NCBI GenBank assembly: GCA_021846045.1
Contig: JAJZCM010000002.1
Location: forward strand, 16,585 to 80,584
Source: a bacterium
GTDB taxonomy: Bacteria > Elusimicrobiota > Elusimicrobia > UBA1565 > UBA9628
Reading direction: 5' to 3'
DNA: 64,000 nucleotides
Positions within the stretch are counted from its first letter, which is position 1. Each line of letters opens with the position of its first letter. Made by a program: the position numbers and the translations under genes. Shown piece after piece: positions 5,860 to 54,593 of this stretch. Under the pieces are notes generated by a model. That model worked only from the letters and a program-made list of their open reading frames with translations. It ran no database searches and was not told the DNA's origin.

Positions 5860-5860
5860 C

Positions 5861-7276: not shown

Positions 7277-7346
7277 TTGCTCTAACCCCCTCGTCCGTTC
7301 TGAGATTTTTTCTGAACTACCAAGACAAATCGCTCAAGGATTAATC

Positions 7347-7781: not shown

Positions 7782-7807
7782 GTGATTATCCCCCCTACGC
7801 TTAATCA

Positions 7808-8188: not shown

Positions 8189-8198
8189 AAACCACCCC

Positions 8199-8531
8199 CT
8201 ATTTCATCCCCAACTCTCCCAATAGATTGCCAACAATGATCCCGGAATCGGATTTCCAGTTCTCGATCCTAGGGTCTGCTTGATGCCCTAAAATTCTCCT
8301 TCCTTGGTAAAAAGTCAAGCTTTTTTGAATTCCACGATTTAATCGTGTCGTGGCAACTCTCGCGAGCCGGCAATACCTTAAAAACAACGCGACTTGTCTT
8401 AAGGTAAGTGGAAAAAGACTCATGTTAATATCTTTTTCAAAGGCCGCGACTGTCTTTTTAACGTCTTCCAACAACATTTCCCGTTCTCTATGCCGGAACA
8501 TCGCGATTTTCCTTGTGTTAGGTGACATCAT
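8199..8531 (-). CDS. hypothetical small protein (possible HTH)
   Basis: 110-aa ORF tightly packed between neighbours on the same strand. No recognisable family. Confidence 0.3.
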   Translation of the reverse strand: MMSPNTRKIAMFRHREREMLLEDVKKTVAAFEKDINMSLFPLTLRQVALFLRYCRLARVATTRLNRGIQKSLTFYQGRRILGHQADPRIENWKSDSGIIVGNLLGELGMK

Positions 8532-8546
8532 TATCTTAACCCCCTT

Positions 8547-10007: not shown

Positions 10008-10414
10008 AACCTTACCCCCCTTATAGAAGTTTAAGCTCTGGACTTTCGTTTTAACGCTTTGTTTATTGCATCAACCGAGCAAGGGTGCAGAACCAACATC
10101 TCGGTTGCTTAGGCCAGTGTAGCCATAAGTTAAACTAAAAAACACCCAGCGTTACTACGCTACAAAAGTGGTGGGTAATGGCCGAAATACGCAACTTCTT
10201 CAACCATCCGCTTTATCCGTGAAATATCTTTTATCAATTCCTCAACACAACCTCACCCCAGGATTATAGACCCCATCTTGAACTTTTTCAAGGGGGCGAA
10301 AAATTTGCGCAACGGAAGGGTTATGAGTTAAACTAAAAAATCGCTCGGCCGGGGTGGGTCCAGGTAGGTGGGACGCGACAGGCGGAACAAAGCCGACAAT
10401 GGGAGGGAACCTAA

Positions 10415-10882
10415 GTGCATTATATTGACGACAATCTTGTGGAAGGCGAGTCCGTTATTTTTCAAACAACACTCCACTGGATAACCGCGTGTTTGCCGCT
10501 TATCGGCAGTCTGTTTTTTTGGCTCTGCGCTTGGCTCGAAATCGGTCTCAATGAGGGCTATCCTGCACTGGGCTACTTTCTAATGGGGGGCCTAATTGCC
10601 TCAGCGCCCTTCATTGCAATATCTACTTCGGAATTTGGAATTGCGACGCAAAGGGTGATGATTAAGGTCGGGCTCCTTCAGACGCATACTCTTGAGATAT
10701 TCCTGTCCAAGGTGGAGTCCATATCCGTGGACCAAACGATTGTCGGATGACTTTTAGGATATGGGACACTGGTGGTCAAAGGGACTGGCGGAACAGCAGA
10801 GCCGTTCCCATGAGTAAAAGATGCTTTTGAATTCCGCAAGAAAGTGCAAGAGCAAATTGCAAGGACGAAAACAGAAAAATGA
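10415..10882 (+). pseudogene. bPH_2 (YdbT-like bacterial PH) domain membrane protein interrupted by two in-frame TGA codons
   Basis: Two TM helices then RVMIKVGLLQTHTLEIFLSKVESISVDQTIVG-[TGA 10748]-LLGYGTLVVKGTGGTAEPFP-[TGA 10811]-VKDAFEFRKKVQEQIARTKTEK-[TGA 10880]. The conserved bPH_2 motifs continue in the same frame across both internal TGAs. Confidence 0.55.
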
Positions 10883-10966
10883 AGCTCTCAAAAAAGTTTT
10901 CTCCTCCGGGAACTCCCAGATTGCGAAGATGAGTGTGAGATGAATGAATCAAAGGAGAAAAAACGA

Positions 10967-11254
10967 ATGCCGACCTATAAAACATACACGTGCTACCAGT
11001 CCCCCATGGGACCGCACACTGTCTCTGTGCCCGAATGGCAAGAGCCGCCGGATGATATATGTCCGGAGACTGGCATCAAGAGACACAAATGGGTCATTGC
11101 CACCAATGCTCGCTCGGGAACCTGGAACTGTGGCGAATGCGCTAAGCCAATAGGAGTAAATGATTGCGTCCTCTGTGAGAATGGTTGCGGACAAAAATTC
11201 CACAAAACTTGCTTCGAAAAGCACAATCGAGGGGCGCATTCCGGGCAAGCGTAA
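10967..11254 (+). CDS. Cys-rich RING/PHD-like zinc-finger protein
   Basis: AAGGAG RBS 7 nt upstream. C-x2-C-x7-C-x2-C-x3-C-x4-H-x2-C-x3-H pattern (NCGECAKPIGVNDCVLCENGCGQKFHKTCFEKH). Same frame as the bPH_2 ORF, TAA stop. Confidence 0.45.
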   Translation: MPTYKTYTCYQSPMGPHTVSVPEWQEPPDDICPETGIKRHKWVIATNARSGTWNCGECAKPIGVNDCVLCENGCGQKFHKTCFEKHNRGAHSGQA

Positions 11255-11272
11255 AGGGTTTGAGACAATAGT

Positions 11273-11581
11273 ATGAACATAAAATCGGTTGCGCATCTAT
11301 TTGAGTCCTCAGGCACTGCTTTAGGTGCCGTAAAGGATTTGCAATGGAATGAGGGCCAACAAAAATTTGTGAAGGTCCAGAGCATAGGCGGCGCAGTGGA
11401 ACTAGTGCCCGGATTCCAAGAAAGCGGCGAAATTACTTTCTACATCAACAAACCTCTCAGCGTAGCAAAAACGTATCGGCTCAAAATGCTTAGCAAGGCC
11501 ATTCCAATTAAAATAACGCACGTGGAAGGTCCCGGTGGGGATGGATTCTATTTTGTCCGTGCCAGTCAAATGCAGGCGTAG
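11273..11581 (+). CDS. hypothetical protein
   Basis: 102-aa ORF directly downstream of the Cys-rich gene. No recognisable motif. Confidence 0.3.
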   Translation: MNIKSVAHLFESSGTALGAVKDLQWNEGQQKFVKVQSIGGAVELVPGFQESGEITFYINKPLSVAKTYRLKMLSKAIPIKITHVEGPGGDGFYFVRASQMQA

Positions 11582-11584
11582 CCC

Positions 11585-11932
11585 ATGGGCTGTTGCGTGG
11601 AATGTTTGGCGGCCTCTTGGTGGTGGATTTTTGGGGTGGCATTCAGCGCCTTTTGGAGCATTCGTAGCTGCTGTCTCTTTACGAAAGAATATCGAGATTG
11701 TGAAAAATTTTGGTGGGGTAGCTACCAATTCATTCTCAATTTTTCTTGCTCCTTTGCTGGCTGGATATGCCTTCATATTCTGGAATTACGTTTCATGTCT
11801 GTGGGTCATGTCAATCAACTTAGCTGGGCAGACTTCGCTCTGTTTTTGCTTGCCCTGCTTGGCGTTACCGGATCGCTACCACAGTTTTTAGTCAAGTTGC
11901 CGGAGGCCATTGTCAAGGCGACCAAGAGCTGA
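11585..11932 (+). CDS. hypothetical Cys/Trp-rich membrane protein
   Basis: 115-aa ORF 3 nt after the previous stop. An overlapping alternative frame (11535-11891) also looks membrane-like, so the frame assignment is uncertain. Confidence 0.25.
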   Translation: MGCCVECLAASWWWIFGVAFSAFWSIRSCCLFTKEYRDCEKFWWGSYQFILNFSCSFAGWICLHILELRFMSVGHVNQLSWADFALFLLALLGVTGSLPQFLVKLPEAIVKATKS

Positions 11933-12305
11933 ACGAAGAAATGAGGAGAACTATGCCAAGAACAAGAAGAGGGACACCACTGATCCGGAGAAAGATAGTT
12001 GAACACGTAGCCTATCCGGAATGCAAGACGGAATTAGCCGTCAGCATCAGAGTATTGAGACGCAGGTAGCCGCGCCGCGAAGTTGCCGGAGGCTGAATAC
12101 GGCCTTCAGTCAGATGAAACTTGGAGCGCACCGTGGAATCACCCCTTTCGCTTTCTTCCCTCTTGTCTTGTGATGCCGAACATACATCTCTCTCATGTAT
12201 TCCCACCTCGCATTGGGACTCATCAAAATGACCTCCCGGATCCAAAAAGAAACCTTCAGGAAGCATTATACCTCGCCCTTTTTTCGGTAACATTTTCAAA
12301 TGAGT

Positions 12306-12420
12306 TGACACGACGACATGATTTTGTGGCATACTAATTACACAACCCCCAACCCTAGTGGAAGGGGTGCGAGGCCGCTCGAAAGGACGGCTTCTGCATT
12401 TTATGAGAACATACGTTACG
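12306..12420 (+). promoter_or_regulatory. promoter + structured leader repeat A2 with truncated NYN-like start (MRTYV...)
   Basis: TTGACA...CATACT followed by a leader homologous to A1, including the GAGGCCG...CGGCTTC hairpin and T-run. ATG at 12403 opens only a 16-codon remnant. Confidence 0.45.
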
Positions 12421-12606
12421 CAGACGGTCGCAAAGACTCTTGCTTTTTTTGATACAACGAATCATCATTAGGGGAGATAAGATGACCCATCAAGAGATTT
12501 ATGAGAAGGAGTATGGCGAAAAAGGTTGGGAGAAGCTCAATTCTAGGATTAAGAAAATCTTCAAGCGTATTGATTCTTTGCCGTCTTTAAGCGACAAACA
12601 AGTTAA

Positions 12607-12831
12607 TTGATTTCGTGGGCATTGACAATCTTTATAATCTGTCTTATACTGAAGTGTATTCGACAAGGGGATGTTAACATGAGTAGCAAAAAATTCTTGA
12701 TTAGCGCGATGGGTAGAAAGAATTATCTCAACCTGTCGAAAAGCTTCAGAGAAAATATCGATCTCTTAGACAAGCTCCCACCGACCGCCAAGCCGGTCAC
12801 ATTGAAGCAGATCGAAAACGCCCTGAAATAG
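12607..12831 (+). CDS. small hypothetical protein, possible antitoxin-like partner of the PIN gene
   Basis: 74-aa ORF (the likelier start is the internal MSSKKFLISAMGRKNYLNL at 12679) ending 15 nt before the PIN gene. An extra 42-codon ORF at 12481-12609 precedes it. Confidence 0.3.
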   Translation: MISWALTIFIICLILKCIRQGDVNMSSKKFLISAMGRKNYLNLSKSFRENIDLLDKLPPTAKPVTLKQIENALK

Positions 12832-12846
12832 CGCTATACAAGAGCG

Positions 12847-13404
12847 ATGGGCCAATACTGTTACTTGTTTGATGCAAGTGCCTTGGTTGCGCTGTTGCTC
12901 AAGAATCCCGATGGCGATGTGAAAATTGCCAAAGGGAAAATTTTAAAATTGCTTGCCAATGGGCGCAAGAATGAAAATTCGCTGTTTTTCGTTCCAAATA
13001 TTTGTATGGCCGAGGTATCTTCGGCTTTGGCCAAAATTTTTCTAGCAGACGGCTATACAGAACAAAGAGAGAACTCGTATCGACAGCATGTTGAATTTCT
13101 TCTGGAGTGGGTTTCATCGAAGAAAAGGCATGTAATACAAACCTACGCTCTCAAACGCTCACATCTTGTCGATATCGAACATATTTTTATTGCCGACCGG
13201 AAGTTGCCTGGGAGAAAAGGGAACCCGCTGAGTGGGCATGATGGCATCATAATTGCCATGGGGCGTGTCCTTGGAAGAACATATGGGAACGGGAACGTAA
13301 TAATTTTAACTCTTGACGGAAGAATGGCTGACGTTTGCGTCCATAACCGGGATTTTTTCCCCCATGCCATAGACCTTGCCAGACAAGAAATTCCTGGCGC
13401 CTAG
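12847..13404 (+). CDS. PIN-domain (VapC-like) putative nuclease
   Basis: N-terminal YLFDASALVALL, later AEV and SGHDGIIIAMG acidic motifs, consistent with a PIN fold. It ends 37 nt before repeat B2. Confidence 0.5.
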   Translation: MGQYCYLFDASALVALLLKNPDGDVKIAKGKILKLLANGRKNENSLFFVPNICMAEVSSALAKIFLADGYTEQRENSYRQHVEFLLEWVSSKKRHVIQTYALKRSHLVDIEHIFIADRKLPGRKGNPLSGHDGIIIAMGRVLGRTYGNGNVIILTLDGRMADVCVHNRDFFPHAIDLARQEIPGA

Positions 13405-13441
13405 AAGTTTTGCGTTGATTGCCGCCGCTCGTATGTCTGAG

Positions 13442-13676
13442 TGGTGTCTATCCGGTGTCCATAACAGTCTAATTCCAGCAAAGAGGCGGGCTTGTGATTA
13501 TCGCATTTCCCGACGGCGGTCATAAACCGTCAGAATCGGTCAAAGTTTAGATTTCCCCTCGCCCGCTGGGGCATCTTCAAGGCCGGTTCAGGTGCGCTCG
13601 ATCTCGATTCCGAATTCCCCGTCCTCTTCGTGGACGTGAAGCGTCAGCGCCCGGCAACAGACCTGGCAGTCCTCGT
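13442..13676 (+). repeat. 235-bp perfect direct repeat, copy B2 (native 3' end and downstream region of the CPXCG gene)
   Basis: Identical to 5625-5859. Confidence 0.9.
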
Positions 13677-19801: not shown

Positions 19802-20176
19802 CTATGGCGTCGCTTGTCCGACCGCTTTTTGAGCTTGAGAAACCAGTGCGTCAACATCGCAAGGCTTGGTCATGAAGGAAACGACTTGGGGAAACTTCTG
19901 AAAGAGGGGCTTTGAAGGCTCAAGGGCGGTTAAAATGATGACTGGGAGCGTTTTAGTTTCGGGGTTTTCCGCGATTTGTTGTCCCAAGGAATATCCATCG
20001 ATGCCCGGAAGCATCACATCCAAAATGAGAAGATCCGGCTTATGGGTGGAGATGGCGGCGAGGGCTTGCTTGCCGCTGTCACAGGTCGCGGTCTTAAAAC
20101 CGGCCTTTTCAAGGGCGTAAGAAATCATTTTAAGCATTTCGGGATCATCATCAATAATAAGAACTTTCTTTTCCAT
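19802..20176 (-). CDS. single-domain response regulator (CheY-like receiver)
   Basis: LIIDDDPEML...KPDLLILDVMLPGIDGYSL receiver motifs. 124 aa. Confidence 0.8.
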   Translation of the reverse strand: MEKKVLIIDDDPEMLKMISYALEKAGFKTATCDSGKQALAAISTHKPDLLILDVMLPGIDGYSLGQQIAENPETKTLPVIILTALEPSKPLFQKFPQVVSFMTKPCDVDALVSQAQKAVGQATP

Positions 20177-20233
20177 ATTTCTAAGCTATAAATTACGCAT
20201 CTAGGCTGTCAATGATGCGCTATAACTACTCAT

Positions 20234-20365
20234 GTCACCCCGACGAAAGTCGGGGTCCAGGTTTCTAACTGGCCGTTTTCCTTCGGAATCTGGAAACGGC
20301 GCTTCCTCGCGTTATCGCTCGGTCGGATTCCGGCTTTCGCCGGAATTACGAACCTGAGCAGTTAC
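20234..20365 (+). repeat. REP-like two-hairpin repeat element, copy R1 (longest, with internal extra hairpin)
   Basis: GTCACCCCGACGAAAGTCGGGGTCCAG ... GATTCCGGCTTTCGCCGGAATTACGAACCTGAGCAGTTAC. Related copies at 43807-43888 and 54491-54556. Confidence 0.8.
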
Positions 20366-20410
20366 GATACGCTATACTATGCTGAGCTGAAAAGGGCAAA
20401 GGATTATTCC

Positions 20411-21739
20411 ATGAATGATATTAAAGACACAGGCGAAACGTTGGAGGCGGCGGGAAAAATTGTCCAAAATTTCAATGAAACGGCGGCCTTGCCTTCTTAC
20501 GCGAGAGCCGACATTCTGCAAAAAATTTCGGGGAAGATAGCGGGTTTGTCCGAAGATTTTGCGCGCCTCATCTGCGAAGAAGTCAAAAAACCCATAAAAG
20601 AATCGCGGCGAGAGGTCGCGCGCGCGGTTTTCACTTTTAATTGGGCGGCCGAGGAAGCGAAACGTTTCGGCGGAGAAGTGTTGCCGCTGGATTTAGACGC
20701 GTCCAGCGCCGGGCGTTTGGCTTTAACCCGTCGTTTCCCTCGGGGGCCGGCGCTCTTGATCTCTCCTTTTAATTTTCCGCTCAATCTTGTCGCCCATAAG
20801 GTGGCGCCGGCGATTGCCTTAGGAATTCCTTTTGTTCTTAAACCCGCTCCTCAGGCTCCCAAAACCGCTCAAAAATTAATGAAAATTATTTTTGAATCGG
20901 ACTGGCCCAAGGGCGCCGCTGCGGCGCTGCCCTGCTCAAATGAAGTGGCGGAGAAACTGGTCCAGAGCGATTTGTTTTCCATTCTTTCCTTTACCGGAAG
21001 CGCCGCAGTCGGATGGAAATTAAAATCCTTGTCCGGAAAAAAACGCGTGGTTTTGGAATTGGGCGGGACCGCTCCTCTTTACATTGATGAAAAAGCCGAT
21101 TTGGCGTTCGCGGCCAAAAGGACGGCGTGGGGGGCCTTTTATTACAGCGGACAGGTTTGTATTTCCGTCCAGAAAATTTTTGCGGCCGCGCCTTGTTATG
21201 AGAGTTTTAAAGAGTTGCTGCTTAAGGAAATAGCGGATTTAAAATTGGGAGATCCGGCGGATGAAAATACCGATATCGGCCCCTTGATTGATAAAAAATC
21301 CGAAGAGCGCGTTGAAAATTGGGTTTCGGAAGCGGTCGCGGGGGGCGCGCGGGTTTTATTTGGCGGGAAACGGCTTGATGGAGTTTTTATGCCGACATTA
21401 ATTGAAAACGCGCCTCAAAGTTGCAAACTGAATTGCGAGGAAGTTTTCGGCCCCGTGGCGACTCTCGAAAAAGTCTCGAATTCCGAAGAGGCGCTTAGGA
21501 AAATGTCGGAAGGCGCCTACGGACTTCAGGCAGGAATTTTCACCAACGATTTGAATCTAGCCGTTCAATCTTGGACAACGCTTCCCCATGGGGGCGTGAT
21601 TATTAACGATATTCCGGCCTTTCGCTCGGATGTAATGCCTTACGGAGGAAACAAGGATTCCGGCTCCGGGAGGGAAGGCGTACGCTATGCGATGGAGGAA
21701 TATTCGGAACTCAAGACGCTGGTGCTCAACCCTCAATAG
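20411..21739 (+). CDS. NAD(P)-dependent aldehyde dehydrogenase family protein
   Basis: ELGG motif (VLELGGTAP) and catalytic Cys region GQVCISVQKIF. Confidence 0.8.
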   Translation: MNDIKDTGETLEAAGKIVQNFNETAALPSYARADILQKISGKIAGLSEDFARLICEEVKKPIKESRREVARAVFTFNWAAEEAKRFGGEVLPLDLDASSAGRLALTRRFPRGPALLISPFNFPLNLVAHKVAPAIALGIPFVLKPAPQAPKTAQKLMKIIFESDWPKGAAAALPCSNEVAEKLVQSDLFSILSFTGSAAVGWKLKSLSGKKRVVLELGGTAPLYIDEKADLAFAAKRTAWGAFYYSGQVCISVQKIFAAAPCYESFKELLLKEIADLKLGDPADENTDIGPLIDKKSEERVENWVSEAVAGGARVLFGGKRLDGVFMPTLIENAPQSCKLNCEEVFGPVATLEKVSNSEEALRKMSEGAYGLQAGIFTNDLNLAVQSWTTLPHGGVIINDIPAFRSDVMPYGGNKDSGSGREGVRYAMEEYSELKTLVLNPQ

Positions 21740-43109: not shown

Positions 43110-43318
43110 GATTTTTTGCTCTGTTGCTCAATCAAATTGCGCCTTCGTCTTTTGCTTGCGCGGTTTGTTTCGGCGCCAAAGGCTCTCCCGATCTCCTCCG
43201 AGGCCTCATTATCAGCGGAGTCATACTTTTAGCTTTTGTTTTCTCGATTTTAGGCGTTCTGATTAAGACGGTCTATGATATGGAAAACCGCAAAAATGCG
43301 GCCGATCGTCTGTCATGA
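43106..43318 (+). CDS. small CxxC-containing single-TM protein in the oxidase operon
   Basis: 70 aa. FACAVCFGAK followed by a TM helix. Translationally coupled to both neighbours. Confidence 0.4.
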   Translation: MRFFALLLNQIAPSSFACAVCFGAKGSPDLLRGLIISGVILLAFVFSILGVLIKTVYDMENRKNAADRLS

Positions 43319-44286
43319 GTGAAATTTCTTCCGCGTCGCTAACGCCTTCCCCAGTTTCGCCGTCTTTTCATCTTTTTGCCGTGCTGACCTCCGTTTGCGC
43401 TTTTATTTTAGTTTTTGTCGGCGCCCTGGTAACCTCAACGGGATCGGCTTTAGCGGTTCCAGATTGGCCGCTTTCTTTCGGAAAATTTTTCCCGCCGATG
43501 ACAGGCGGAGTTTTATTTGAGCACGGGCACCGGATGATTGCCGGTTCTGTCGCCTTGATGACCTGGGCCTTGGGCTTATGGGCTTATTTCTCGCGCTTAT
43601 CCAAGCCGGTCAGGCTTTTGAGCTATCTCATCGCTTCCGCGATCTTGCTTCAGGCCATTTTAGGAGGGCTCACGGTTCTTCTTCTTTTGCCGCCGTCTAT
43701 TGCGGTTTTTCACGCTCTACTGGGGCAAACGGTTTTTTGCCTTCTTCTGATTTTGGCGGACGTTTCTTCCCCATCCTCCAAATCTAAAATTGAGGTAACT
43801 ACTGGCGTCACCCCGGCGCAAGGCGGGGTCCAGAGCGGCAATTTTCTGGATTCCGGCTTTCGCCGGAATGACGAATCTGAGCAGTTACAAATTGAGTCTT
43901 CAAAACCCGGGCTTTGGAAATACGGCGCCGTTGCTGTGACGGCGCTTTATCTTCAGCTTCTTTTCGGCGCGATTTTAAGGCATTCCGGAAAATACGGGTT
44001 TCTTCACTACGCTTGGTCCATTGGGGCGTCGATTTCCCTGATTACCTTGTTTATCGCGGGGTTGAGAAGCAAGATTAAAAGTTTAAAGGGGCTTTCTATT
44101 TTCGCGGGCATTTTCGTCTTTTTTCAAGTTGCTTTGGGGCTTTTGGCTTATATGCGCCGGATTTCCCTTGATATGCAGCCGGGTTATAACCCAGGAGCCT
44201 TGTTGACCTCCATCCATGTGGCTTTGGGGGCTTTGCTTTTAGGCTCTTCGGTTTTATGGACTTTTCGCGCTTGGCAAGTTCGATGA
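43315..44286 (+). CDS. ctaA: haem A synthase (CtaA/COX15) carrying an in-frame REP-element insertion in its central loop
   Basis: Two four-helix halves with His ligands (FEHGHRMIAG; HYAWSIGAS). REP copy R2 at 43807-43888 is translated in-frame as ...GVTPAQGGVQSGNFLDSGFRRNDESEQLQ... Confidence 0.8.
   Translation: MSEISSASLTPSPVSPSFHLFAVLTSVCAFILVFVGALVTSTGSALAVPDWPLSFGKFFPPMTGGVLFEHGHRMIAGSVALMTWALGLWAYFSRLSKPVRLLSYLIASAILLQAILGGLTVLLLLPPSIAVFHALLGQTVFCLLLILADVSSPSSKSKIEVTTGVTPAQGGVQSGNFLDSGFRRNDESEQLQIESSKPGLWKYGAVAVTALYLQLLFGAILRHSGKYGFLHYAWSIGASISLITLFIAGLRSKIKSLKGLSIFAGIFVFFQVALGLLAYMRRISLDMQPGYNPGALLTSIHVALGALLLGSSVLWTFRAWQVR
43807..43888 (+). repeat. REP-like two-hairpin repeat element, copy R2 (inside ctaA)
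   Basis: GTCACCCCGGCGCAAGGCGGGGTCCAG...GATTCCGGCTTTCGCCGGAATGACGAATCTGAGCAGTTAC. Confidence 0.8.
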
Positions 44287-45122
44287 TTAAAGACTATTTG
44301 TCTCTCTGCAAACCGAGAATTTCTCTTTTAGTCGCGCTGACTGCGGCTTTGGGATATGCCTTGGCGCATGGAGTTTCCGGAGCGCATTTTTATTGGATGA
44401 TACTCGGCGTTACCTTAAGTTCGTCCGCGAGCGCGTGCTTGAATCAGTGGATGGAATTTAAACAAGACGCTCTCATGGAAAGAACGAAAAAGCGCCCGAT
44501 TCCTCAAGGGCGAATTACGCCGAAAGCGGCTTTTATTTTCGGAGTTTCCTTAGCCGTTGCCGGATTTTTGATTCTTTTCTTTAAGTCCAATTTTCTCGCC
44601 TTATTTTTGACCGAATTGACGGTGGCCGTCTACGTTTTGGTTTATACCCCGCTTAAGATGTCGACGCCGCAGACGACCTGGATTGGCGCGTTTGCCGGGG
44701 CGACGGCTCCTTTGATCGGTTGGGCCGCGGCGGCGGGTAGGCTTTCTCTGGAAGCGTGGATTTTGTTTGGAATTCAGTTCTTGTGGCAGATTCCGCATTT
44801 TTTGGCGTTATTTTGGATCTACCGCGACGATTATGCCCGCGCGGGGTTTAAGGTGATGCCGGTCCTTGATCCCGACGGAAAAATTACTTCCGCTCAGATT
44901 GCGCTTCATTCTTTTTCCGTTCTGCCCGTCGTTCTTTTGCCCGCCTTTTGCGGCATGGCGGGAACTGGTTATGAGGTGGGGGCGTTGTGCGTGGGAACCG
45001 CCTATATGAGCTTGGGCCTTAAGGCTAGTTGGGGATTAGAAAGAACCGATACGAAGCGGCTGTTTTTCGCGTCGCTTATTTACCTTCCCCTTATTTTCGG
45101 AATGCTTTGGATAGGAGCGTGA
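44256..45122 (+). CDS. ctaB: protohaem IX farnesyltransferase
   Basis: UbiA-family polytopic protein. Follows ctaA in the oxidase operon. Confidence 0.85.
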   Translation: MDFSRLASSMIKDYLSLCKPRISLLVALTAALGYALAHGVSGAHFYWMILGVTLSSSASACLNQWMEFKQDALMERTKKRPIPQGRITPKAAFIFGVSLAVAGFLILFFKSNFLALFLTELTVAVYVLVYTPLKMSTPQTTWIGAFAGATAPLIGWAAAAGRLSLEAWILFGIQFLWQIPHFLALFWIYRDDYARAGFKVMPVLDPDGKITSAQIALHSFSVLPVVLLPAFCGMAGTGYEVGALCVGTAYMSLGLKASWGLERTDTKRLFFASLIYLPLIFGMLWIGA

Positions 45123-45123
45123 A

Positions 45124-45819
45124 ATGGTGAAGAAAACTTTGATCGGCTTTGGACTCTTGATGGCGGTTTTGTCCGCCTGCCAGACGGTTTCTCAAGATCC
45201 GGTGGTCAGAGGAGACGCTTATTTCCACGCCTTGGGCTGCCTACAATGCCATCAAATTGGAAATGAGGGCGGAACTTGGGGGCCGAACTTGACTTTTATT
45301 GGGTTTAGAAAAAGCCCTCAGTGGCTGACCTTGTGGCTTAAGAGTCCGCACTCGTGGAATCAAAAAACCGTTATGCCTAATTTCCATTTGACCCAGGATG
45401 AATTAACGTCCTTGGTCGCTTATTTGTCCGCTCAAAAAGGGCAGGCTTGGACTGATGCCCAAAGGCCTTGGAATAAACCGGGACTTACCGAACTTGAGAG
45501 GGGTCATATTCTTTTTAACGAAGCAGGTTGCGTGGCTTGCCACGGGCAAGACGGCAGAGGCGGATATCCCAACAACAACGTCGTTGGCGGCCAGATTCCG
45601 GGACTCACGCAGGTTTCCTTGGGATACAGCCGGCATGAATTAATCGCTAAAATCACCAACGGCGTTCCGCAGTCGGCTCCGGCTGACCCGAATAAGCCGC
45701 TTCCCATGATCTTTATGCCGTCTTGGGGACGGGTCTTGTCGCAGTCTGAAATTTCCGACGTCGCGGATTATCTCTTGTCGTTAGGGCCCAAGCCTTCTTC
45801 TAGCGCGGATAGCTTTTAA
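45124..45819 (+). CDS. dihaem cytochrome c
   Basis: Signal peptide/lipobox-like N-terminus. Two CXXCH motifs (CLQCHQ, CVACHG). Confidence 0.8.
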   Translation: MVKKTLIGFGLLMAVLSACQTVSQDPVVRGDAYFHALGCLQCHQIGNEGGTWGPNLTFIGFRKSPQWLTLWLKSPHSWNQKTVMPNFHLTQDELTSLVAYLSAQKGQAWTDAQRPWNKPGLTELERGHILFNEAGCVACHGQDGRGGYPNNNVVGGQIPGLTQVSLGYSRHELIAKITNGVPQSAPADPNKPLPMIFMPSWGRVLSQSEISDVADYLLSLGPKPSSSADSF

Positions 45820-45822
45820 GCC

Positions 45823-46272
45823 TTAACCGCCCCAGCCGACCTTGACGACGCCCATTCCATAGTCAAAGACCAGCCGTCCGCCAAGATAGGCGGTTGACAA
45901 AAGGATGCCCAACGCGGCGGCCCATAGAATGGTTTGCGCGATTTTGTCTTGTTTCCGAAATATCCGCCACAGGGATAAGAGGCTAAAAACCCCTACGGTC
46001 CAAAAAGCCCTCGCTTTATGATTCGCCAAGACTTCCCAGGCCGGAGGCACATGCGGGGCTTTGTCCTCGGCCAAAAGTCCAAGCCCCATGGCCGACCAAG
46101 CGCCGATGGTTCCCAGCCACAAGGCCCAGGAAACGGCGGCGTCGATCCATTTAAAAGGTTCCTTTTTTCTTAGAAATCCGGCCAATAGCGCCAGGATAAA
46201 ACCCAAGGATAAAAGCGCGATGGGAAAATGAACGGCGATGGGGTGGAAAAGATAAAGGGGAGGGATTTCCAT
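45823..46272 (-). CDS. DUF2231-like integral membrane protein
   Basis: Four TM helices. Start taken at the second Met (MEIPPLY) so the upstream terminator hairpin is not translated. Confidence 0.45.
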   Translation of the reverse strand: MEIPPLYLFHPIAVHFPIALLSLGFILALLAGFLRKKEPFKWIDAAVSWALWLGTIGAWSAMGLGLLAEDKAPHVPPAWEVLANHKARAFWTVGVFSLLSLWRIFRKQDKIAQTILWAAALGILLSTAYLGGRLVFDYGMGVVKVGWGG

Positions 46273-46276
46273 GGTT

Positions 46277-46319
46277 AAAAAGGGGACTGTCACTTTTTAA
46301 AGGGACAGTCCCCTTTTTT
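46277..46319. terminator. perfect-palindrome rho-independent terminator
   Basis: AAAAAGGGGACTGTC-ACTTTTTAAAG-GGACAGTCCCCTTTTTT. Flanked by A- and T-runs, so it can terminate in both directions. Confidence 0.7.
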
Positions 46320-46327
46320 GCGTGTGA

Positions 46328-46738
46328 TTAGCTTTTTACTTTTTCGACTTTGTCGACGATCAAGGCTTTGAGGCCGCCTTTATGCGACATATCGCCGGTG
46401 ACTTTAACGAGTTTTGCCGCCAGTTTTTTTGCCGAGTCATAAGCGGATTGTTTCTCGTGGTCATTGACCAAGAGATAAAGCGAGCCCTTTTTGGTCAAAA
46501 GTCCCATCGGAGCTCCGTCCGCCAGACATTTTTTCGCGCACGCCGCATGATTGGCCCCTTTGGCGCTGTGGCCAAGGTAGCAGGCGAGATCGACGATTTC
46601 ACCGGTGACGGTTTTATCGGCCGCCTCATGCTTTTCGCCCTTCATATTCATGCCTTTCATGTCCATGTCATGAGACCACGCCAAGGCGGCGGTGGTCATG
46701 AGTGACACGGCTAAGAAGGCAATGTTGAGTTTTTTCAT
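46328..46738 (-). CDS. secreted Met/His-rich hypothetical protein (possible metal binding)
   Basis: Signal peptide MKKLNIAFLAVSLMTTAALA, then HDMDMKGMNMKGEKHE and several Cys. Confidence 0.45.
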   Translation of the reverse strand: MKKLNIAFLAVSLMTTAALAWSHDMDMKGMNMKGEKHEAADKTVTGEIVDLACYLGHSAKGANHAACAKKCLADGAPMGLLTKKGSLYLLVNDHEKQSAYDSAKKLAAKLVKVTGDMSHKGGLKALIVDKVEKVKS

Positions 46739-46810
46739 CAGTATTCTCCCAAGACAATGGACCTAAGCTGTCCATCCTTGTTTGTATTTTAGCAAAATTG
46801 GGGGCTGTCG

Positions 46811-48259
46811 CTATTTATTCTTAAGAAGAGACTTCGCAGCTTTGAGGACGATGTCTGTTATGGCGGGGCCGACGGAATTGGTTTCCTCATAATGATCGCC
46901 CTTGGGGCGCGGTTCCATGATGAGGTCCTGGGTCGCTTTAAAGTCATAACCGGGAACCATGTAGCCGAGTTCATCATTGGCGAGTCCGGCCACGATTTTT
47001 ATTTTCCCCGGCATTTCATCCCAGAGATACGGCCCTTTCGGCGCTTTAGAAAGGTCCGGCGGGTTGGGGTTGTTCGGCTTAATCAAGGGATGTCCAAAGC
47101 GGTAGCGCCCGTGATATCCGCCGATGACGAGTTCCGGGAAAATCTCTCCGGGAATCCCCAAAATGGTCAGCGGCCCGATTCTGATGAGACTCACCTCGCT
47201 TTTGATCCAGGGACTTTCCTCCGGTTTAAGCAGATGAAAAGCATGCTTAAGCGCGATCCAGTAGGGGCTCTCTTTGAGGGGCGTTCCGTCTTTCAAAAAG
47301 AGTTTATGCCCGAAAACGAGCGAATAAAGAAAAAGGAGATAGCGCGAATTCTGGACGGGGATAAAAAGGGTCTGGCTGGATACGGAAATTTTTGAGCTCG
47401 AGATAGGCAAGGCCTTCGGAAGATTTTGAAGCGCGAAATCGGCGACGGCTTTCCCGATGCGCTCATTTTCCTCCCAAGAGCCGTCCTTTCCTTTTATTTC
47501 TTCTGGAGTGAGCAGTCCGCCGATGGGGCCGTTGATAAAAACGCAGGCGCCTCCGGATTTTTGTTCTACGCGGTTGCAGAGAACCCCAGGGAAGTCGGCG
47601 GTTAGAAATTTGTTGGCGTGATTGAGAACTTCCGCATGGCAGGGCCAGTGGATGAGATTGGCCACGGTTTTTCCGGCGCGGTCTTGAACGTGGATGACGG
47701 AAAAATAAGGGTCTATGACAACAGGGTCACGGCTGTCGCGGCAAAGCCCGTTGGGCGCGAGTTCTTTCGTGATCCCGGACAGACGGACGGGTTTGAGATT
47801 TTGCGATAATTCTTTGATTTTCTCAGAGACAGACTTTTCGATTCTTTGAAGATATTGGGAATTGACTCCAGAAACTCCGGGCCAAGGTCCCCACAGTCCC
47901 AAAGTGTCCGGGCCGGAGTGATCATGGGTTGAAGCGACAAAAAGATAGCGGCCGGGCCGGTCAAAGCCGGAAATTTTTCTTAAGTCTTCGACTTGATTGC
48001 GAAAAAATCCGATCAGGTCCAATCCGACGATCGCGAGAGTTTCCTTTTTGTCGGACAAGACGAGAATGCGGGCGTAAAGGGGGTCATGAACGCCGACGGG
48101 AGTTCTCCCCATGAATCCGTATCCGGCAAGATAGGTTTTTTCCGTGGCGAGATTTGGAGTGATGTCCACTTTGCCGGCGGCGGCCCGCATCGAAGCGTGA
48201 AGAGAGGCGGCTGTTGACGATAAAACACAAAAAAGAACGAGAATTTTTAAAGACCTCAT
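46811..48259 (-). CDS. neutral/alkaline ceramidase-family secreted hydrolase
   Basis: Signal peptide. The N-terminal region (GKVDITP...YLAGYGF...HDPLYARILVL) matches the neutral ceramidase N-terminal domain. Confidence 0.55.
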   Translation of the reverse strand: MRSLKILVLFCVLSSTAASLHASMRAAAGKVDITPNLATEKTYLAGYGFMGRTPVGVHDPLYARILVLSDKKETLAIVGLDLIGFFRNQVEDLRKISGFDRPGRYLFVASTHDHSGPDTLGLWGPWPGVSGVNSQYLQRIEKSVSEKIKELSQNLKPVRLSGITKELAPNGLCRDSRDPVVIDPYFSVIHVQDRAGKTVANLIHWPCHAEVLNHANKFLTADFPGVLCNRVEQKSGGACVFINGPIGGLLTPEEIKGKDGSWEENERIGKAVADFALQNLPKALPISSSKISVSSQTLFIPVQNSRYLLFLYSLVFGHKLFLKDGTPLKESPYWIALKHAFHLLKPEESPWIKSEVSLIRIGPLTILGIPGEIFPELVIGGYHGRYRFGHPLIKPNNPNPPDLSKAPKGPYLWDEMPGKIKIVAGLANDELGYMVPGYDFKATQDLIMEPRPKGDHYEETNSVGPAITDIVLKAAKSLLKNK

Positions 48260-52959: not shown

Positions 52960-54474
52960 TTAAGGCCAGGATTGAGGCTTAGTGTCCTGCCAATCCGTTT
53001 GGACCAAGACGACGTTTAAAGTCGGAACCTGGAGTTGGTCATTGTAGAATATTCCGCAGAAACTGCTCAGACAATTGGGGTCTCCCGAAGGACAACTGGC
53101 CGCGACCGAACCATTGACCCAGACGGCGCCGTTAAAATCCATGAAATTTTTGATGATCAAATTCCCGCCAACATAGGTAAATCCCCGCACTCCGACGGTA
53201 TTGACCCATCCGCAGGTCATCGTGTTAGGGGGCTTGCTTGGGAAGCAAAATGAATTAGTTCCGAAAGCCCAGGTGGCCGCGCTTTGGTGGTAGCCAATGT
53301 CTGCGGGATATTCGCCGCTGGCAGGCGTGTCATAGCGGGTTTCCGTGAATTTCTGATGCTGCCGCCAGGCATTAGCTGGGACGTGCCCGGTATAATCATA
53401 ATCGCCGCCGCTGTCGATGGTCAGTTTTCCGCGAACGATGATGGTGCCTTGTAGCCCGGAATCGAGTCCGGCCGAGGGCGCCGCGCCTTGTCCGGTGAAG
53501 GTCACGTCCCCATCCCAATACCAGACGTAATTGGTATTGGGATGATATTGCGGGGAAAAAGGGTGATTCCAATTGTTTCCAAAATGGCAATAGGGTCCGT
53601 AACAAGCTCCTCCCGTTGGGCTGGAATAATGCGGAGAGCCTGTCGGGCAAGTTCCTTTATTGGCCCAGGGAGCGCGTCCTGTCATGTTGGCCCCGGTCGT
53701 CGGATCGGTGTAGTTGGAGCTTTTTCTGCAGCCGTAAACATTGAGGGTATGGGTGGCGGCGGCCGAGGAGCGAAGAGCGGCGAAATCGAGAATCGGGAGT
53801 TCCGGAACCTTGGGGTAATTGGCCCACCATTCGATGCCGTCGGTGTTGGGCGGCAAGGGCCAGCTGGTGTCCCGCGGGTTTGCGGCGGTTCCAATGACGT
53901 CAGCCCGCGCGTATTTTTGTGGGAAATACCATTGAGCGGTGGTGTTATCGAGGGTGATATTACCTTGAGAGATAATGGGGCCCCAAAAGATGCTGACCCC
54001 TTTGGAATAGCTGACGTTCCCCTGCGTCAGAAGCGGGCTATAAACCGTCTCATTTTGAAAAATGGCCTCAATTTCCCTGAGTTCATGCGTGGAATTGTCC
54101 CGCCCTTCGCCGTAAATCGTAATTCCGCCATTCGCGGCGGAAGTGATGAGAATGCGATATTCTCCGCCTGGGATATCGCCGTAATTTTTATCGAATTGAT
54201 ATCCGGGAAACGGGGTTCCCGCCGACATCTCCGCGAAAGTTCCCGTTGAGCTTTTGGCTTTCCAATAGCCGCGGTTGACCGCCGCTTCGGCGAGGTTCAG
54301 AGCAGCGGTTGATTTTTGGTTTTTGACCGAGGTTCTTGCCTCCGATTGGACCCATTGAACGACCGCCGGAACGATGGCCAGAAGAAGAAGCATCAAAAGC
54401 AAGGTTCCGACCAATATCTGCCCGAAGTCTTTTCTAAACAAAATATTTTTCTTCATATTAGTGTAGTGATTCAT
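52960..54474 (-). CDS. PilX-like minor pilin/tip-associated protein, module 2
   Basis: FGQILVGTLLLMLLLLAIV helix and a KNQKSTAALNLAEAAVNRGYWK block. Start taken at an internal Met so that REP copy R3 is intergenic. Confidence 0.6.
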   Translation of the reverse strand: MNHYTNMKKNILFRKDFGQILVGTLLLMLLLLAIVPAVVQWVQSEARTSVKNQKSTAALNLAEAAVNRGYWKAKSSTGTFAEMSAGTPFPGYQFDKNYGDIPGGEYRILITSAANGGITIYGEGRDNSTHELREIEAIFQNETVYSPLLTQGNVSYSKGVSIFWGPIISQGNITLDNTTAQWYFPQKYARADVIGTAANPRDTSWPLPPNTDGIEWWANYPKVPELPILDFAALRSSAAATHTLNVYGCRKSSNYTDPTTGANMTGRAPWANKGTCPTGSPHYSSPTGGACYGPYCHFGNNWNHPFSPQYHPNTNYVWYWDGDVTFTGQGAAPSAGLDSGLQGTIIVRGKLTIDSGGDYDYTGHVPANAWRQHQKFTETRYDTPASGEYPADIGYHQSAATWAFGTNSFCFPSKPPNTMTCGWVNTVGVRGFTYVGGNLIIKNFMDFNGAVWVNGSVAASCPSGDPNCLSSFCGIFYNDQLQVPTLNVVLVQTDWQDTKPQSWP

Positions 54475-54490
54475 AAATTCCTTCACATTC

Positions 54491-54556
54491 GTCACCCCGA
54501 CGAAAGTCGGGGTCCAGAGCATCGATCTTCTAGATTCCGGCTTTCGCCGGAATGAC
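54491..54556 (+). repeat. REP-like two-hairpin repeat element, copy R3 (truncated, intergenic)
   Basis: GTCACCCCGACGAAAGTCGGGGTCCAGAGC...GATTCCGGCTTTCGCCGGAATGAC. Confidence 0.8.
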
Positions 54557-54593
54557 GGCCTTTCCAATGTAAAGAAGTGTTGGAATCACTATA

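What the first reader, a model, noticed from the sequence alone, without database searches (positions are those of the whole stretch)
43807..43888. REP-like two-hairpin element family with one copy inserted in-frame in haem A synthase
Three same-orientation copies share the pattern GTCACCCCGrCGmAAGkCGGGGTCCAG ... GATTCCGGCTTTCGCCGGAATkAC(GAAyCTGAGCAGTTAC). They lie at 20234-20365 (longest, with an extra CCGTTTCC...GGAAACGG hairpin), 43807-43888 and 54491-54556 (truncated). Two are intergenic. The ctaA copy is translated in-frame as a 27-residue insertion in the inter-half loop (GVTPAQGGVQSGNFLDSGFRRNDESEQLQ) without disrupting the COX15 helices or His ligands. This is a small mobile repeat captured as coding sequence in an essential respiratory gene.
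Basis: seen in the sequence. Interest (0 to 1): 0.55.

Follow-up and report, generated by a model that had tools for sequence, protein, structure and literature searches.

The report
Small transposon translated inside haem A synthase
A 94-base non-coding mobile element (a MITE) jumped into the haem A synthase gene of an uncultivated bacterium and is read through as 34 extra amino acids in a loop, a clean new example of the known way selfish DNA becomes protein sequence.

Summary
Three same-strand copies of a two-hairpin repeat lie in the window (0 expected by chance). One sits inside an intact COX15/CtaA ORF. The element is larger than reported: 43795-43888 (94 bp). It has terminal inverted repeats GTAACTACT.../...AGCAGTTAC and a perfect 8-bp target-site duplication, AAATTGAG. 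A sister strain whose ctaA is 98% identical has the empty site, lacking exactly 102 nt (94 + 8 = 34 codons). All other orthologues are 289 aa against 323 aa here. The insert falls in the low-confidence linker between helix 4 and helix 5; all eight helices and the conserved histidines are kept. So this is a MITE rather than a classical REP. Its tips and 8-bp duplication match single-ORF IS66-family insertion sequences that I read directly (B. thuringiensis plasmid IS: GTAACTACTCAGCT + 8 bp) and published ISDge4. Its core is a pair of inverted hairpins of the widespread GTCA-stem-GAAA-stem-TCCAG type, resembling Neisseria dRS3/NIME units. About 95 kb attributed to this organism (the yidD/rsmG/recO contig by shared sample only) holds 8 copies. 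Others sit in frame in yidD, form a new rsmG C-terminus, and lie decayed in recO. No transposase was found in the sequence available. Verdict: a new member of a known kind, analogous to Rickettsia RPEs. Moderate interest.

The parts
43315..44286 (+). ctaA (haem A synthase, COX15/CtaA), 323 aa, intact ORF carrying the insertion as residues 161-194. ctaB (UbiA family) follows at 44256-45122.
43795..43888 (+). MITE copy B, 94 bp, translated in its only stop-free sense frame as VTTGVTPAQGGVQSGNFLDSGFRRNDESEQL(Q).
   Evidence: Empty site in L001/L002 lacks exactly this element plus one TSD copy. Frames.
43787..43794 (+). Left copy of the 8-bp target-site duplication, AAATTGAG.
43889..43896 (+). Right copy of the 8-bp target-site duplication, AAATTGAG.
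43795..43806 (+). Left terminal inverted repeat, GTAACTACTGGC (IS66-family single-ORF type tip).
   Evidence: PMC12898284
43873..43888 (+). Right terminal inverted repeat; its reverse complement reads GTAACTGCTCAGATTC.
   Evidence: PMC12898284
43807..43833 (+). Hairpin module 1, GTCA-CCCCGGC-GCAA-GGCGGGG-TCCAG.
43845..43873 (+). Hairpin module 2, CTGGA-TTCCGGC-TTTC-GCCGGAA-TGACG. It is the inverted counterpart of module 1 and resembles dRS3.
20222..20365 (+). MITE copy A, long form (144 bp) with a 50-nt internal insertion that holds an extra hairpin. It lies in the 234-nt divergent intergenic region between a response-regulator gene (19802-20176, -) and an aldehyde dehydrogenase gene (20411-21739, +). 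Its flanking 8-bp repeat is GATGCGCT (20214-20221) / GATACGCT (20366-20373), 7/8 matches.
54464..54591 (+). Copy C. The same 68-nt two-hairpin core (54490-54557) sits inside different outer inverted arms (54464-54489 / 54566-54591). It has no GTAAC tips and no recognisable duplication. It fills the gap between two minus-strand pilin-like genes.

Best explanation
[quoted passage not shown] It is a 94-bp non-coding DNA transposon made of three parts: (a) 12-16-bp terminal inverted repeats, GTAACTACT... / GTAACTGCTCAG...; (b) a core of two inverted GC-rich hairpin modules (GTCA-stem-GNRA loop-stem-TCCAG); and (c) a short spacer.

Shown: it was inserted into ctaA by a cut/copy-and-paste reaction that duplicated 8 bp of target (AAATTGAG). 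A 98%-identical sister allele has the unoccupied site.

Shown: 94 + 8 = 102 nt is a multiple of three, and the frame hit is one of only two of the six frames without a stop. Translation therefore runs through the element and resumes in the ctaA frame, adding 34 hydrophilic residues.

Shown or modelled: the extra residues lie in the linker between transmembrane helices 4 and 5, which joins the two four-helix halves. All eight helices and the invariant His/Arg/Glu positions are kept.

Inferred: the linker is cytoplasmic, and the enzyme still works, so the insertion is a tolerated passenger rather than an adaptation.

Inferred: the element is moved in trans by a single-ORF IS66-family (ISBst12-group-like) DDE transposase. 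Those insertion sequences have the same tips (GTAACTACTCAG) and the same 8-bp duplication. That transposase has not been found in the sequence available for this organism.
For: Filled/empty pair. Window ctaA and L001/L002 are 98% identical (852/870 and 849/867 aligned nt) and differ by one clean 102-nt indel bounded by AAATTGAG. The BLAST alignment of L001 to the window is collinear at 98.5% and breaks exactly at 43794/43889. The filled allele is identical or differs by 1 nt in independent assemblies L003 and L004, and 7 contigs carry the protein.

Orthologues. P0002-P0009 are all 289 aa and P0010 is 280 aa. The gap spans exactly the 34 residues in 10 of the 11 aligned orthologues and 35 in the distant P0014.

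Other copies with 8-bp duplications:
- L035/L047 intergenic copy, GATTTTTG, 8/8
- rsmG copy, TTTCCGAC, 8/8
- copy A, 7/8
- yidD copy, 7/8
- L033 copy, 5/8
The chance of 7/8 or better at a given site is 4e-4.

Tip match to autonomous IS, read directly from plasmids:
- B. thuringiensis p101287 IS, 1,629 bp: GTAACTACTCAGCT at both ends plus CAAAATTT 8/8
- ISGka4 on pHTA426: GTAwCTATTCAGCC plus GACGAGTT. Its transposase matches Pfam DDE_Tnp_IS66 and zf-IS66.
- Mycobacterium and Tolypothrix IS: GTAA..ATTCAG.. plus 8 bp
- Published ISDge4: GTGACTACTCAGCA / GTAACTGCTCAGCA plus an 8-bp direct repeat (PMC12898284)

Reading frames. Only +0 and -2 are open in the 94-bp form.

Structure. The AlphaFold2 model has mean pLDDT 86.5. 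Helices are 16-41, 66-92, 97-123, 127-150 | 200-224, 228-251, 255-283, 293-322. The insert is mostly coil (its first two residues fall in a short helix 154-162) at pLDDT 52-67. H70, H72, H133, H223, H231 and H301 are invariant across 65 homologues.
Against: No IS66-type transposase was found in the window, in the 8.9 kb beyond its start, or in the other fetched contigs from this organism and its relatives (tblastn). The autonomous partner is therefore inferred only from tips and duplication length.

One long-form copy (L045 15664-15808) has no recognisable duplication. Copy C carries the core without the GTAAC tips. The core can therefore exist, and perhaps spread, independently of these tips.

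Activity of the enlarged CtaA is untested. The filled and empty alleles differ at 8 non-synonymous and 5 synonymous codons, too few to measure selection. The stable hairpin in the mRNA (-49 kcal/mol) could affect expression.
Confidence: 0.85

Rival explanations
1. It is a REP/REPIN-type element. Under this reading, a doublet of inverted REP hairpins is mobilised as single-stranded DNA by a RAYT (IS200/IS605-like HUH tyrosine transposase), and the GTAAC tips are incidental.
For: The core is exactly a doublet of inverted hairpins with a conserved 4-nt head (GTCA). The local hairpins are 96% paired, with two compensatory pairs among 7 copies. The same module occurs singly, in doublets and in arrays in unrelated contigs and in predicted proteins that look like translated repeat arrays. 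Copy C has the core without the GTAAC tips.
Against: HUH/RAYT-type insertion makes no target-site duplication (established knowledge of the IS200/IS605 family). Here three copies have perfect 8-bp duplications and two have 7/8. The ctaA empty site shows that tips and core arrived as one 94-bp unit. The tips match DDE-type IS66-family ends. No RAYT-like ORF was seen among the 23 window ORFs scanned with Pfam; the rest were not scanned.
Confidence: 0.08
2. The insertion has inactivated or crippled ctaA. The ORF is open only because the event is recent, so the gene is an incipient pseudogene.
For: The perfect TSD and the 98%-identical empty allele show the event is recent. There is no functional evidence. 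A -49 kcal/mol hairpin lies inside the message.
Against: The frame is preserved. All eight helices and the invariant residues are kept, and the insert sits in the most length-variable loop of the family. The full cox operon (coxB, A, C, D, ctaA, ctaB) is intact around it. The same allele recurs essentially unchanged in several assemblies. Comparable in-frame copies persist in yidD (TSD already 7/8) and in a distant genome (L033, TSD 5/8). Such insertions therefore survive long enough for their duplications to decay.
Confidence: 0.07
3. The 34-residue segment is an adaptive, functional addition selected for its effect on CtaA, for example a new interaction or regulatory loop, rather than a neutral passenger.
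For: The same reading frame (VTP..GVQ...LDSGFRRNDE.EQL) is used in ctaA, yidD and the L033 ORF. Core-derived peptides also occur in HemC- and CPBP-like proteins of other lineages.
Against: Only two of six frames are stop-free, so shared frame use is what survival bias alone predicts. The segment is modelled as low-confidence coil. The host proteins are unrelated. In rsmG the opposite-strand frame simply gives a new tail ending at an internal stop.
Confidence: 0.04
4. The similarity between the ctaA loop and the intergenic repeats is coincidental, or the shorter orthologues have lost an ancestral loop.
For: None beyond the fact that this loop varies in length among CtaA proteins.
Against: The element shares 88-95% nucleotide identity with copies elsewhere. 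It has a perfect 8-bp duplication. All 11 aligned orthologues, down to 45% identity, lack the segment. 0 chance matches are expected.
Confidence: 0.01

Closest known systems
Rickettsia palindromic elements (RPE; Ogata et al. 2000, as reviewed in PMC10969869)
   Same: Both are short palindromic repeats found many times per genome. Both are repeatedly inserted in frame into unrelated housekeeping genes, where they are translated as extra surface or loop peptide without destroying the protein.
   Different: There is no detectable sequence relation; the Rfam scan gave only non-significant matches. On my own recollection rather than a test here, RPEs are about 100-150 bp and lack defined terminal repeats, target duplications and a known mobilising enzyme. 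This element is 94 bp with clear IS-type tips and an 8-bp duplication. The host is an uncultivated free-living lineage, not an obligate intracellular alphaproteobacterium.
Prokaryotic MITEs with coding-region insertions (ERIC, Coxiella QMITE1, Anabaena MITEs; PMC10969869, PMC5896051)
   Same: It is a non-autonomous element with TIRs, a TSD and multiple copies, it is mostly intergenic, and it occasionally fuses in frame with host ORFs.
   Different: The tips and duplication length differ (IS66-family type). I did not find an IS66-derived MITE in the papers searched, which is not proof that none is described. The core is a dRS3-like hairpin doublet.
Single-ORF IS66-family insertion sequences (ISBst12 group; ISDge4; ISGka4, which NCBI labels IS66-like and the paper that named it assigns to ISLre2)
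   Same: The terminal sequence is the same: GTAACTACTCAG / GTAACTGCTCAG. That is 12/12 against the ISDge4 right end and 11-12/12 against the B. thuringiensis plasmid IS. The target duplication is 8 bp in both.
   Different: These IS are 1.5-1.9 kb and encode a DDE_Tnp_IS66 transposase. The MITE encodes nothing and shares only the outer 12-16 bp. Its interior is unrelated to the IS subterminal sequence.
Neisseria intergenic mosaic elements (NIME: dRS3 inverted repeats ATTCCCN8GGGAAT flanking RS elements; PMC1797815)
   Same: Hairpin module 2 is ATTCCG-N8-CGGAAT with the same GTCA / TCCAG-type flanks, and the modules are arranged as an inverted pair around a spacer. BLAST of the core hits N. gonorrhoeae (86.8% over 38 nt). 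The Neisseria units read GTCATTCCCGAGCAGGCGGGAATCTAG...CTAGATTCCCGCTTTCGCGGGAATGACGG and score 42-45 bits with the core model.
   Different: The strict dRS3 consensus is not met: position 6 is G rather than C, compensated in the stem. NIMEs form long arrays, are not known to have GTAAC tips or 8-bp duplications, and are thought to be recombinase targets rather than transposons.
REP / REPIN elements mobilised by RAYT transposases
   Same: Both are hairpin doublets in inverted orientation that can fold into one long hairpin.
   Different: The target-site duplication and DDE-type tips are incompatible with the RAYT mechanism. No RAYT has been found so far.

Membership tests
MITE (non-autonomous DDE-transposon derivative) | Short (under about 300 bp) with no coding capacity of its own | tested here: met
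   The forms are 94, 106 and 144 bp. Four of six frames of the 94-bp form contain stops, and there is no ORF.
MITE (non-autonomous DDE-transposon derivative) | Terminal inverted repeats | tested here: met
   GTAACTACT.. / GTAACTGCTCAG.. at the ends of 6 copies.
MITE (non-autonomous DDE-transposon derivative) | Target-site duplication of fixed length | tested here: met
   The duplication is 8 bp. Three copies match 8/8, two match 7/8 and one matches 5/8. One long-form copy shows none.
MITE (non-autonomous DDE-transposon derivative) | Insertion polymorphism (filled versus empty site) | tested here: met
   ctaA of L001/L002 is 98% identical and lacks exactly the element plus one TSD copy. rsmG orthologues end ...CRKGD, as predicted from the sequence after the element.
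MITE (non-autonomous DDE-transposon derivative) | Multiple dispersed copies in one genome | tested here: met
   8 copies in about 95 kb attributed to the organism: the window, L045 (100% identical overlap with the window) and L047 (assigned only by shared sample with the filled ctaA allele and similar G+C).
MITE (non-autonomous DDE-transposon derivative) | Cognate autonomous element with the same ends in the same genome | tested here: inconclusive
   No IS66-type transposase appears in the window or fetched loci, but only a small fraction of the genome could be read.
IS66 family, single-ORF (ISBst12-like) group, as source of the ends | Terminal repeats beginning GTAA, about 14-30 bp | tested here: met
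   The MITE tips match ISDge4 (literature). They also match the ends I read from the B. thuringiensis, Geobacillus, Mycobacterium and Tolypothrix elements.
IS66 family, single-ORF (ISBst12-like) group, as source of the ends | 8-bp direct target repeats | tested here: met
   The duplication is 8 bp in the MITE copies and in four autonomous elements read here. The literature agrees.
IS66 family, single-ORF (ISBst12-like) group, as source of the ends | Mobilisation by a DDE_Tnp_IS66 transposase | not testable with these tools
   This needs the complete genomes of the lineage or a transposition assay.
REP/REPIN (RAYT-mobilised) | Inverted doublet of conserved hairpins | tested here: met
REP/REPIN (RAYT-mobilised) | Insertion without target-site duplication | tested here: not met
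   Perfect 8-bp duplications at three copies.
REP/REPIN (RAYT-mobilised) | RAYT gene flanked by the repeats in the same genome | tested here: inconclusive
   None appears among the 23 window ORFs scanned with Pfam. The remaining ORFs and the rest of the genome were not scanned.
Neisseria NIME / dRS3 | 20-bp repeat ATTCCCNNNNNNNNGGGAAT | tested here: not met
   Module 2 is ATTCCGGCTTTCGCCGGAAT and module 1 is ACCCCGACGAAAGTCGGGGT. Both have the same architecture but different stem bases.
Neisseria NIME / dRS3 | Inverted dRS3 pair flanking a 50-150-bp RS element, often in arrays | tested here: inconclusive
   There is an inverted pair around a 13-63-nt spacer, but no arrays in the window. Arrays of related modules are suggested in other lineages only by predicted proteins that look like translated repeats.
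Rickettsia palindromic elements | Sequence membership in one of the RPE families | not tested
   No RPE sequences were available for direct comparison. Rfam gave only non-significant matches. The analogy is functional only.

The most novel reading that the evidence does not exclude
The GTCA-stem-GNRA-stem-TCCAG hairpin doublet may be a portable, coding-compatible cassette found across bacteria; here it was seen in the Elusimicrobia-like lineage, as Neisseria dRS3/NIME units, and in many viral and metagenomic contigs. In this lineage it has been captured between minimal IS66-family transposon ends. That would give the first mechanistically defined vehicle (DDE transposase, 8-bp duplication, 3n total length) for the spread of dRS3/NIME-like repeats and for RPE-like seeding of new peptide segments into housekeeping proteins (ctaA, yidD, rsmG, recO, and possibly HemC elsewhere).
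Probability: 0.15. Interest if true: 0.7.

Novelty: new member of a known kind. Interest (0 to 1): 0.45.

Why it matters
In-frame MITE insertions are one accepted route by which selfish DNA becomes protein sequence, but the best-known case (Rickettsia RPEs) has no defined transposition mechanism. Here the event is caught with all its footprints:
- the empty site survives in a 98%-identical strain
- the 8-bp duplication is perfect
- the ends match a known transposase family
- the length arithmetic (94 + 8 = 102) guarantees frame preservation
- the target is an essential respiratory-cofactor enzyme whose fold is known.

That makes it a tractable system for asking how membrane enzymes tolerate loop insertions and how often MITEs create new termini or linkers; four housekeeping genes are affected in about 95 kb. 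It also links a very widespread hairpin module, related to Neisseria dRS3, to a concrete mobilisation mechanism. In practice, such copies generate spurious ORFs and false N-terminal extensions in MAG annotation, as seen at copy C.

Tried and rejected
- Rfam, whole window at gathering thresholds: only four tRNAs. A permissive scan of 43760-43920 gave nothing significant; the best match was FtrB at 17.8 bits against a gathering score of 66.
- Exact right-end pattern AATNACGAANCTGAGCAGTTAC: 2 loci in 185,579 representative genomes (L033, L034) and 0 in JGI metagenomes. The window's own genome is not in either collection, so no genome-wide census was possible.
- Word-indexed protein search with the 41-aa insert peptide: no candidates, and one search was wasted.
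- Exhaustive HMMER search with the 32-aa peptide: 17 hits. Most look like translated repeat arrays. The useful ones were YidD (P0129), HemC (P0125) and a CPBP-like protein (P0136).
- tblastn with an IS66-type transposase (ISGka4) against the window and all lineage loci: nothing.
- Naming the organism through cluster look-ups: no names returned. The only clues are that L034 is labelled an Elusimicrobia MAG and that the named CtaA homologues at 40-45% identity are Elusimicrobia.
- Literature searches for the hairpin sequence or its translations: nothing relevant.
- Long single hairpin as the conserved structure: rejected in favour of two local hairpins. The long form pairs in 75-89% of cells with no compensatory changes in its inner helices; the local hairpins pair in 96% with two compensatory pairs. 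Only 7 sequences were compared.
- Intron, intein or ribozyme removal of the insert: considered and dropped, because the element is 94 nt, has no Rfam match and has clear TIR/TSD footprints.
- ISKpn15, ISH10, Acaryochloris and Deinococcus QL22 loci: my simple scan found no clean ends, so they were not used.
Full report
**1. The observation**

Each half-pattern matches exactly three times, all on the + strand, and none is expected in dinucleotide-preserving shuffles. A single degenerate pattern, GTCAYYCCGNCGNAAGNCGGRRTC, matches six times, once on each strand of each copy. The two 'hairpins' are therefore inverted copies of one module. A covariance model of the 68-nt core, run without filters, finds only these three copies in the 64 kb; the next hit has E = 0.7.

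ORF 43315-44286 (+) is uninterrupted and encodes a 323-aa protein. It matches Pfam COX15-CtaA, and a profile of its homologues matches B. subtilis haem A synthase 6A2J at E = 9e-24. It sits in a coxB-coxA-coxC-coxD-...-ctaA-ctaB operon.

**2. True extent of the element, and proof of insertion**

The closest CtaA orthologues (66-88% identity over the full length; 97% for P0002 once the gap is ignored) are all 289 aa. In the alignment the window protein carries one extra block of exactly 34 residues in 10 of the 11 orthologues (35 in the distant P0014).

I fetched the DNA of P0002 (L001 from GCA_021829385.1; L002 from an ENA assembly). Its ctaA is 98% identical to the window gene and differs by a single clean 102-nt indel:
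- empty site: ...TCTA AAATTGAG TCTT...
- filled site: ...TCTA AAATTGAG [GTAACTACTGGCGTCACC...GAGCAGTTAC] AAATTGAG TCTT...

A BLAST of the 12.9-kb L001 against the window is collinear at 98.5% and breaks exactly at 43794/43889, re-using 8 nt of the query. The inserted unit is therefore 43795-43888 (94 bp), bounded by inverted tips (GTAACTACT / AGCAGTTAC) and a perfect 8-bp target-site duplication.

The filled allele is identical or differs by 1 nt in two other assemblies (L003, L004), and 7 contigs carry the protein. It is not an assembly artefact.

**3. More copies, same footprints**

Copy A is 20222-20365 (144 bp). It has the same tips, with its first base mutated, and flanking repeats GATGCGCT / GATACGCT (7/8).

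A scan of representative genomes with the right-end pattern gave two further members:
- L034, in an 'Elusimicrobia bacterium' MAG. It is intergenic, of the long form, with a degenerate left end.
- L033, in-frame inside a 555-aa ORF, in the same frame as in ctaA.

An exhaustive HMMER search with the insert peptide found a YidD protein carrying the whole element-encoded peptide (P0129). Its contig (L035/L047/L048) holds three full copies:
- an intergenic copy with perfect TSD GATTTTTG
- the yidD copy, 94 bp, TSD 7/8, adding 34 residues after the fourth codon
- a minus-strand copy with perfect TSD TTTCCGAC, two codons before the rsmG stop.

For the rsmG copy I predicted that the ancestral protein ended ...LILCRKGD. 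The orthologues at 67-75% identity end exactly so, or ...CQRGD in P0149. The same contig has a decayed core at the recO C-terminus (...LDSGFRRNDGQEFASL*; 67.6 bits).

L045 is 100% identical to the window where they overlap. It extends 8.9 kb beyond the window start and adds one more long-form copy, which has no recognisable TSD.

In all, there are 8 copies in about 95 kb attributed to this organism. The assignment of L047/L048 rests on sample ERZ27237304 also containing the filled ctaA allele, and on similar G+C. It is likely but not proven.

**4. Anatomy**

The canonical element is 94 bp and consists of:
- a left tip, GTAACTACTCnn (12 nt)
- module 1, GTCA-CCCCGAC-GAAA-GTCGGGG-TCCAG
- a 13-nt spacer
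- module 2, CTGGA-TTCCGGC-TTTC-GCCGGAA-TGAC
- a right tip, GAACCTGAGCAGTTAC (16 nt).

Long forms (144-153 bp) carry an extra internal hairpin that is shared between genomes.

The single strand folds far better than shuffles (-49 kcal/mol, z = -6.4). The minimum-energy fold of the 94-nt form is one long hairpin. Across 7 copies, however, the two local hairpins are better conserved: 96% of cells pair, and there are two compensatory pairs (CG to UA, AU to GC). The inner helices of the long fold pair in 75-89% of cells and show no double changes. With so few sequences this is indicative only.

Copy C (54490-54557) has the same core, but inside different 26-nt outer arms and without GTAAC tips. Tips and core are therefore separable.

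**5. Why translation survives**

94 + 8 = 102 nt, and 106 + 8 = 114 for L033. The downstream frame is therefore always restored. This is necessarily so for the surviving genic copies, but the intergenic 94-bp copy shows it is a property of the element itself.

Of the six frames of the 94-bp form, only +0 (VTTGVTPAQGGVQSGNFLDSGFRRNDESEQL) and -2 are free of stops. ctaA, yidD and the L033 ORF all use +0. rsmG was hit in a frame that stops inside the element, which simply makes a new tail.

In CtaA the insert forms residues 161-194. The AlphaFold2 model (65-sequence alignment, mean pLDDT 86.5, pTM 0.85) keeps helices 16-41, 66-92, 97-123 and 127-150, then 200-224, 228-251, 255-283 and 293-322. 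The insert is modelled mostly as coil (its first two residues fall in a short helix 154-162) at pLDDT 52-67. H70, H72, H133, H223, H231 and H301 are invariant.

The linker is probably cytoplasmic. This is an inference from two points: the TM1-2 and TM5-6 loops of haem A synthases are extracellular (PMC7327177), and the TM2-3 and TM4-5 loops here are rich in Lys/Arg.

**6. Which enzyme moves it**

The IS66 family is described as having IRs starting GTAAGCG and 8-bp direct repeats (PMC11946415). The active single-ORF member ISDge4 (ISBst12 group) has ends GTGACTACTCAGCA / GTAACTGCTCAGCA and an 8-bp direct repeat (PMC12898284). The MITE right tip, GTAACTGCTCAG, is identical over its first 12 nt.

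I then read autonomous elements directly from plasmids:
- B. thuringiensis p101287 IS (1,629 bp): GTAACTACTCAGCT at both ends, TSD CAAAATTT
- ISGka4 on pHTA426: GTAwCTATTCAGCC, identical 8-bp flanks
- a Mycobacterium IS: GTAAACATTCAGCC, 8-bp TSD
- a Tolypothrix IS: GTAAGGATTCAGGT, 8-bp TSD.

The ISGka4 transposase matches Pfam DDE_Tnp_IS66 and zf-IS66. NCBI labels the element IS66-like, whereas the paper that named it assigns it to ISLre2 with 9-bp repeats.

Only the outer 12-16 nt are shared; the interiors are unrelated. Tips and duplication length therefore point to a single-ORF IS66-family transposase acting in trans. No such gene is present in the window or the other lineage contigs I could fetch, so this step remains an inference.

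**7. The core module is widespread**

The pattern GTCAYYCCGNCGNAAGNCGGRRTCCAG hits 28 stretches on 27 viral contigs. Most are single hairpins; some are doublets whose stems differ but are internally compensated.

BLAST of the core against plasmid records hits two N. gonorrhoeae replicons. The locus shows GTCATTCCCGAGCAGGCGGGAATCTAG ... CTAGATTCCCGCTTTCGCGGGAATGACGG, which is the dRS3-RS-dRS3 unit of Neisseria intergenic mosaic elements (PMC1797815). These units score 42-45 bits with the core model. That locus was retrieved through hairpin similarity, so the score is not fully independent.

Predicted proteins elsewhere contain the translated module. Most look like spurious array ORFs. One is a porphobilinogen deaminase with in-frame cores, and another is a CPBP-type protease. 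The doublets from other lineages that I inspected lack GTAAC tips.

**8. Comparison with what is known, and verdict**

In-frame MITE insertions are established, notably RPEs, ERIC, QMITE1 and the Anabaena MITEs (PMC10969869). This element works like an RPE but is not a member of that family. It meets the definition of a MITE on every sequence criterion tested except the cognate transposase, which could not be found. It fails the 'no duplication' criterion of REP/REPIN, and it only approximates the dRS3 consensus.

I file it as a new member of a known kind. It is unusually well documented: it has an empty site, a perfect TSD, assignable ends and several housekeeping-gene insertions. Interest is moderate (0.45).

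The more novel possibility is that IS66-type ends are a vehicle for a widely distributed, coding-compatible hairpin cassette. The evidence does not exclude it, but it rests on one lineage.

Noticed in passing
window 5860-13441 (repeats at 5625-5859 and 13442-13676): A 7,582-bp segment bounded by a perfect 235-bp direct repeat is absent from contig L045 (GCA_027401925.1). That contig is otherwise 100% identical to the window and has one repeat copy. The segment encodes an ankyrin-repeat protein and an FtsK/SpoIIIE-like ATPase, and lies near a tRNA at 4660-4730. It is either an integrated/excisable island or an assembly difference.
   Followed up: partly
window 5861-7276 (-): A 471-aa protein made almost entirely of ankyrin repeats, encoded by a 99-nt tandem repeat of at least 12 units.
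   Followed up: partly
window 52960-54567 (-): The mechanical ORF starts with a TTG inside copy C (MERPSFRRKPESRRSMLWTPTFVGVT...). The real start is probably the MKKNILF... ATG at 54458. This is an example of the repeat creating a false N-terminal extension. Copy C fills nearly the whole gap between two pilin-like genes.
   Followed up: partly
L047 18201-18294 (also in L048): A minus-strand 94-bp copy with perfect TSD TTTCCGAC lies two codons before the rsmG (gidB) stop. It replaces the ancestral C-terminal GD with a 26-residue element-encoded tail. Orthologues end ...CRKGD.
   Followed up: yes
L035 3013-3106 (= L047 about 10013-10106), yidD: A 94-bp copy (TSD 7/8) is inserted after the fourth codon of yidD in the rnpA-yidD-yidC operon. 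It is translated in the same frame as in ctaA (protein P0129/P0139, 112 aa). No empty allele was looked for.
   Followed up: partly
L047 2355-2429, recO 3' end: A decayed two-hairpin core forms the last ~25 codons of recO (...SLGPRESLDSGFRRNDGQEFASL*).
   Followed up: partly
L033 5390-5495: A 106-bp family member lies in frame inside a 555-aa ORF with no Pfam match, in a different MAG (LSA5.bin12). It uses the same reading frame, and its TSD has decayed to 5/8.
   Followed up: partly
protein P0125 (from the representative-library search): A porphobilinogen deaminase (HemC) fragment from another lineage carries two in-frame copies of the hairpin-doublet peptide (VTPTKVGAQSNVLGSGFRRND...). The second is near what may be a frameshifted C-terminus.
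   Followed up: no
L001 versus window 45561-46824: Downstream of ctaB the sister strain differs by indels. Its cytochrome c gene is 165 aa against 231 aa here, and it has an extra AAA_14/DUF4143 gene (L001 9661-10890) that is absent from the window.
   Followed up: no
L014 5660-5790 (viral contig): A hairpin doublet of the same type is flanked by different inverted ends, GTAAAAAGTC...GACTTTTTAC. These also begin GTAA, but no target duplication is visible.
   Followed up: no
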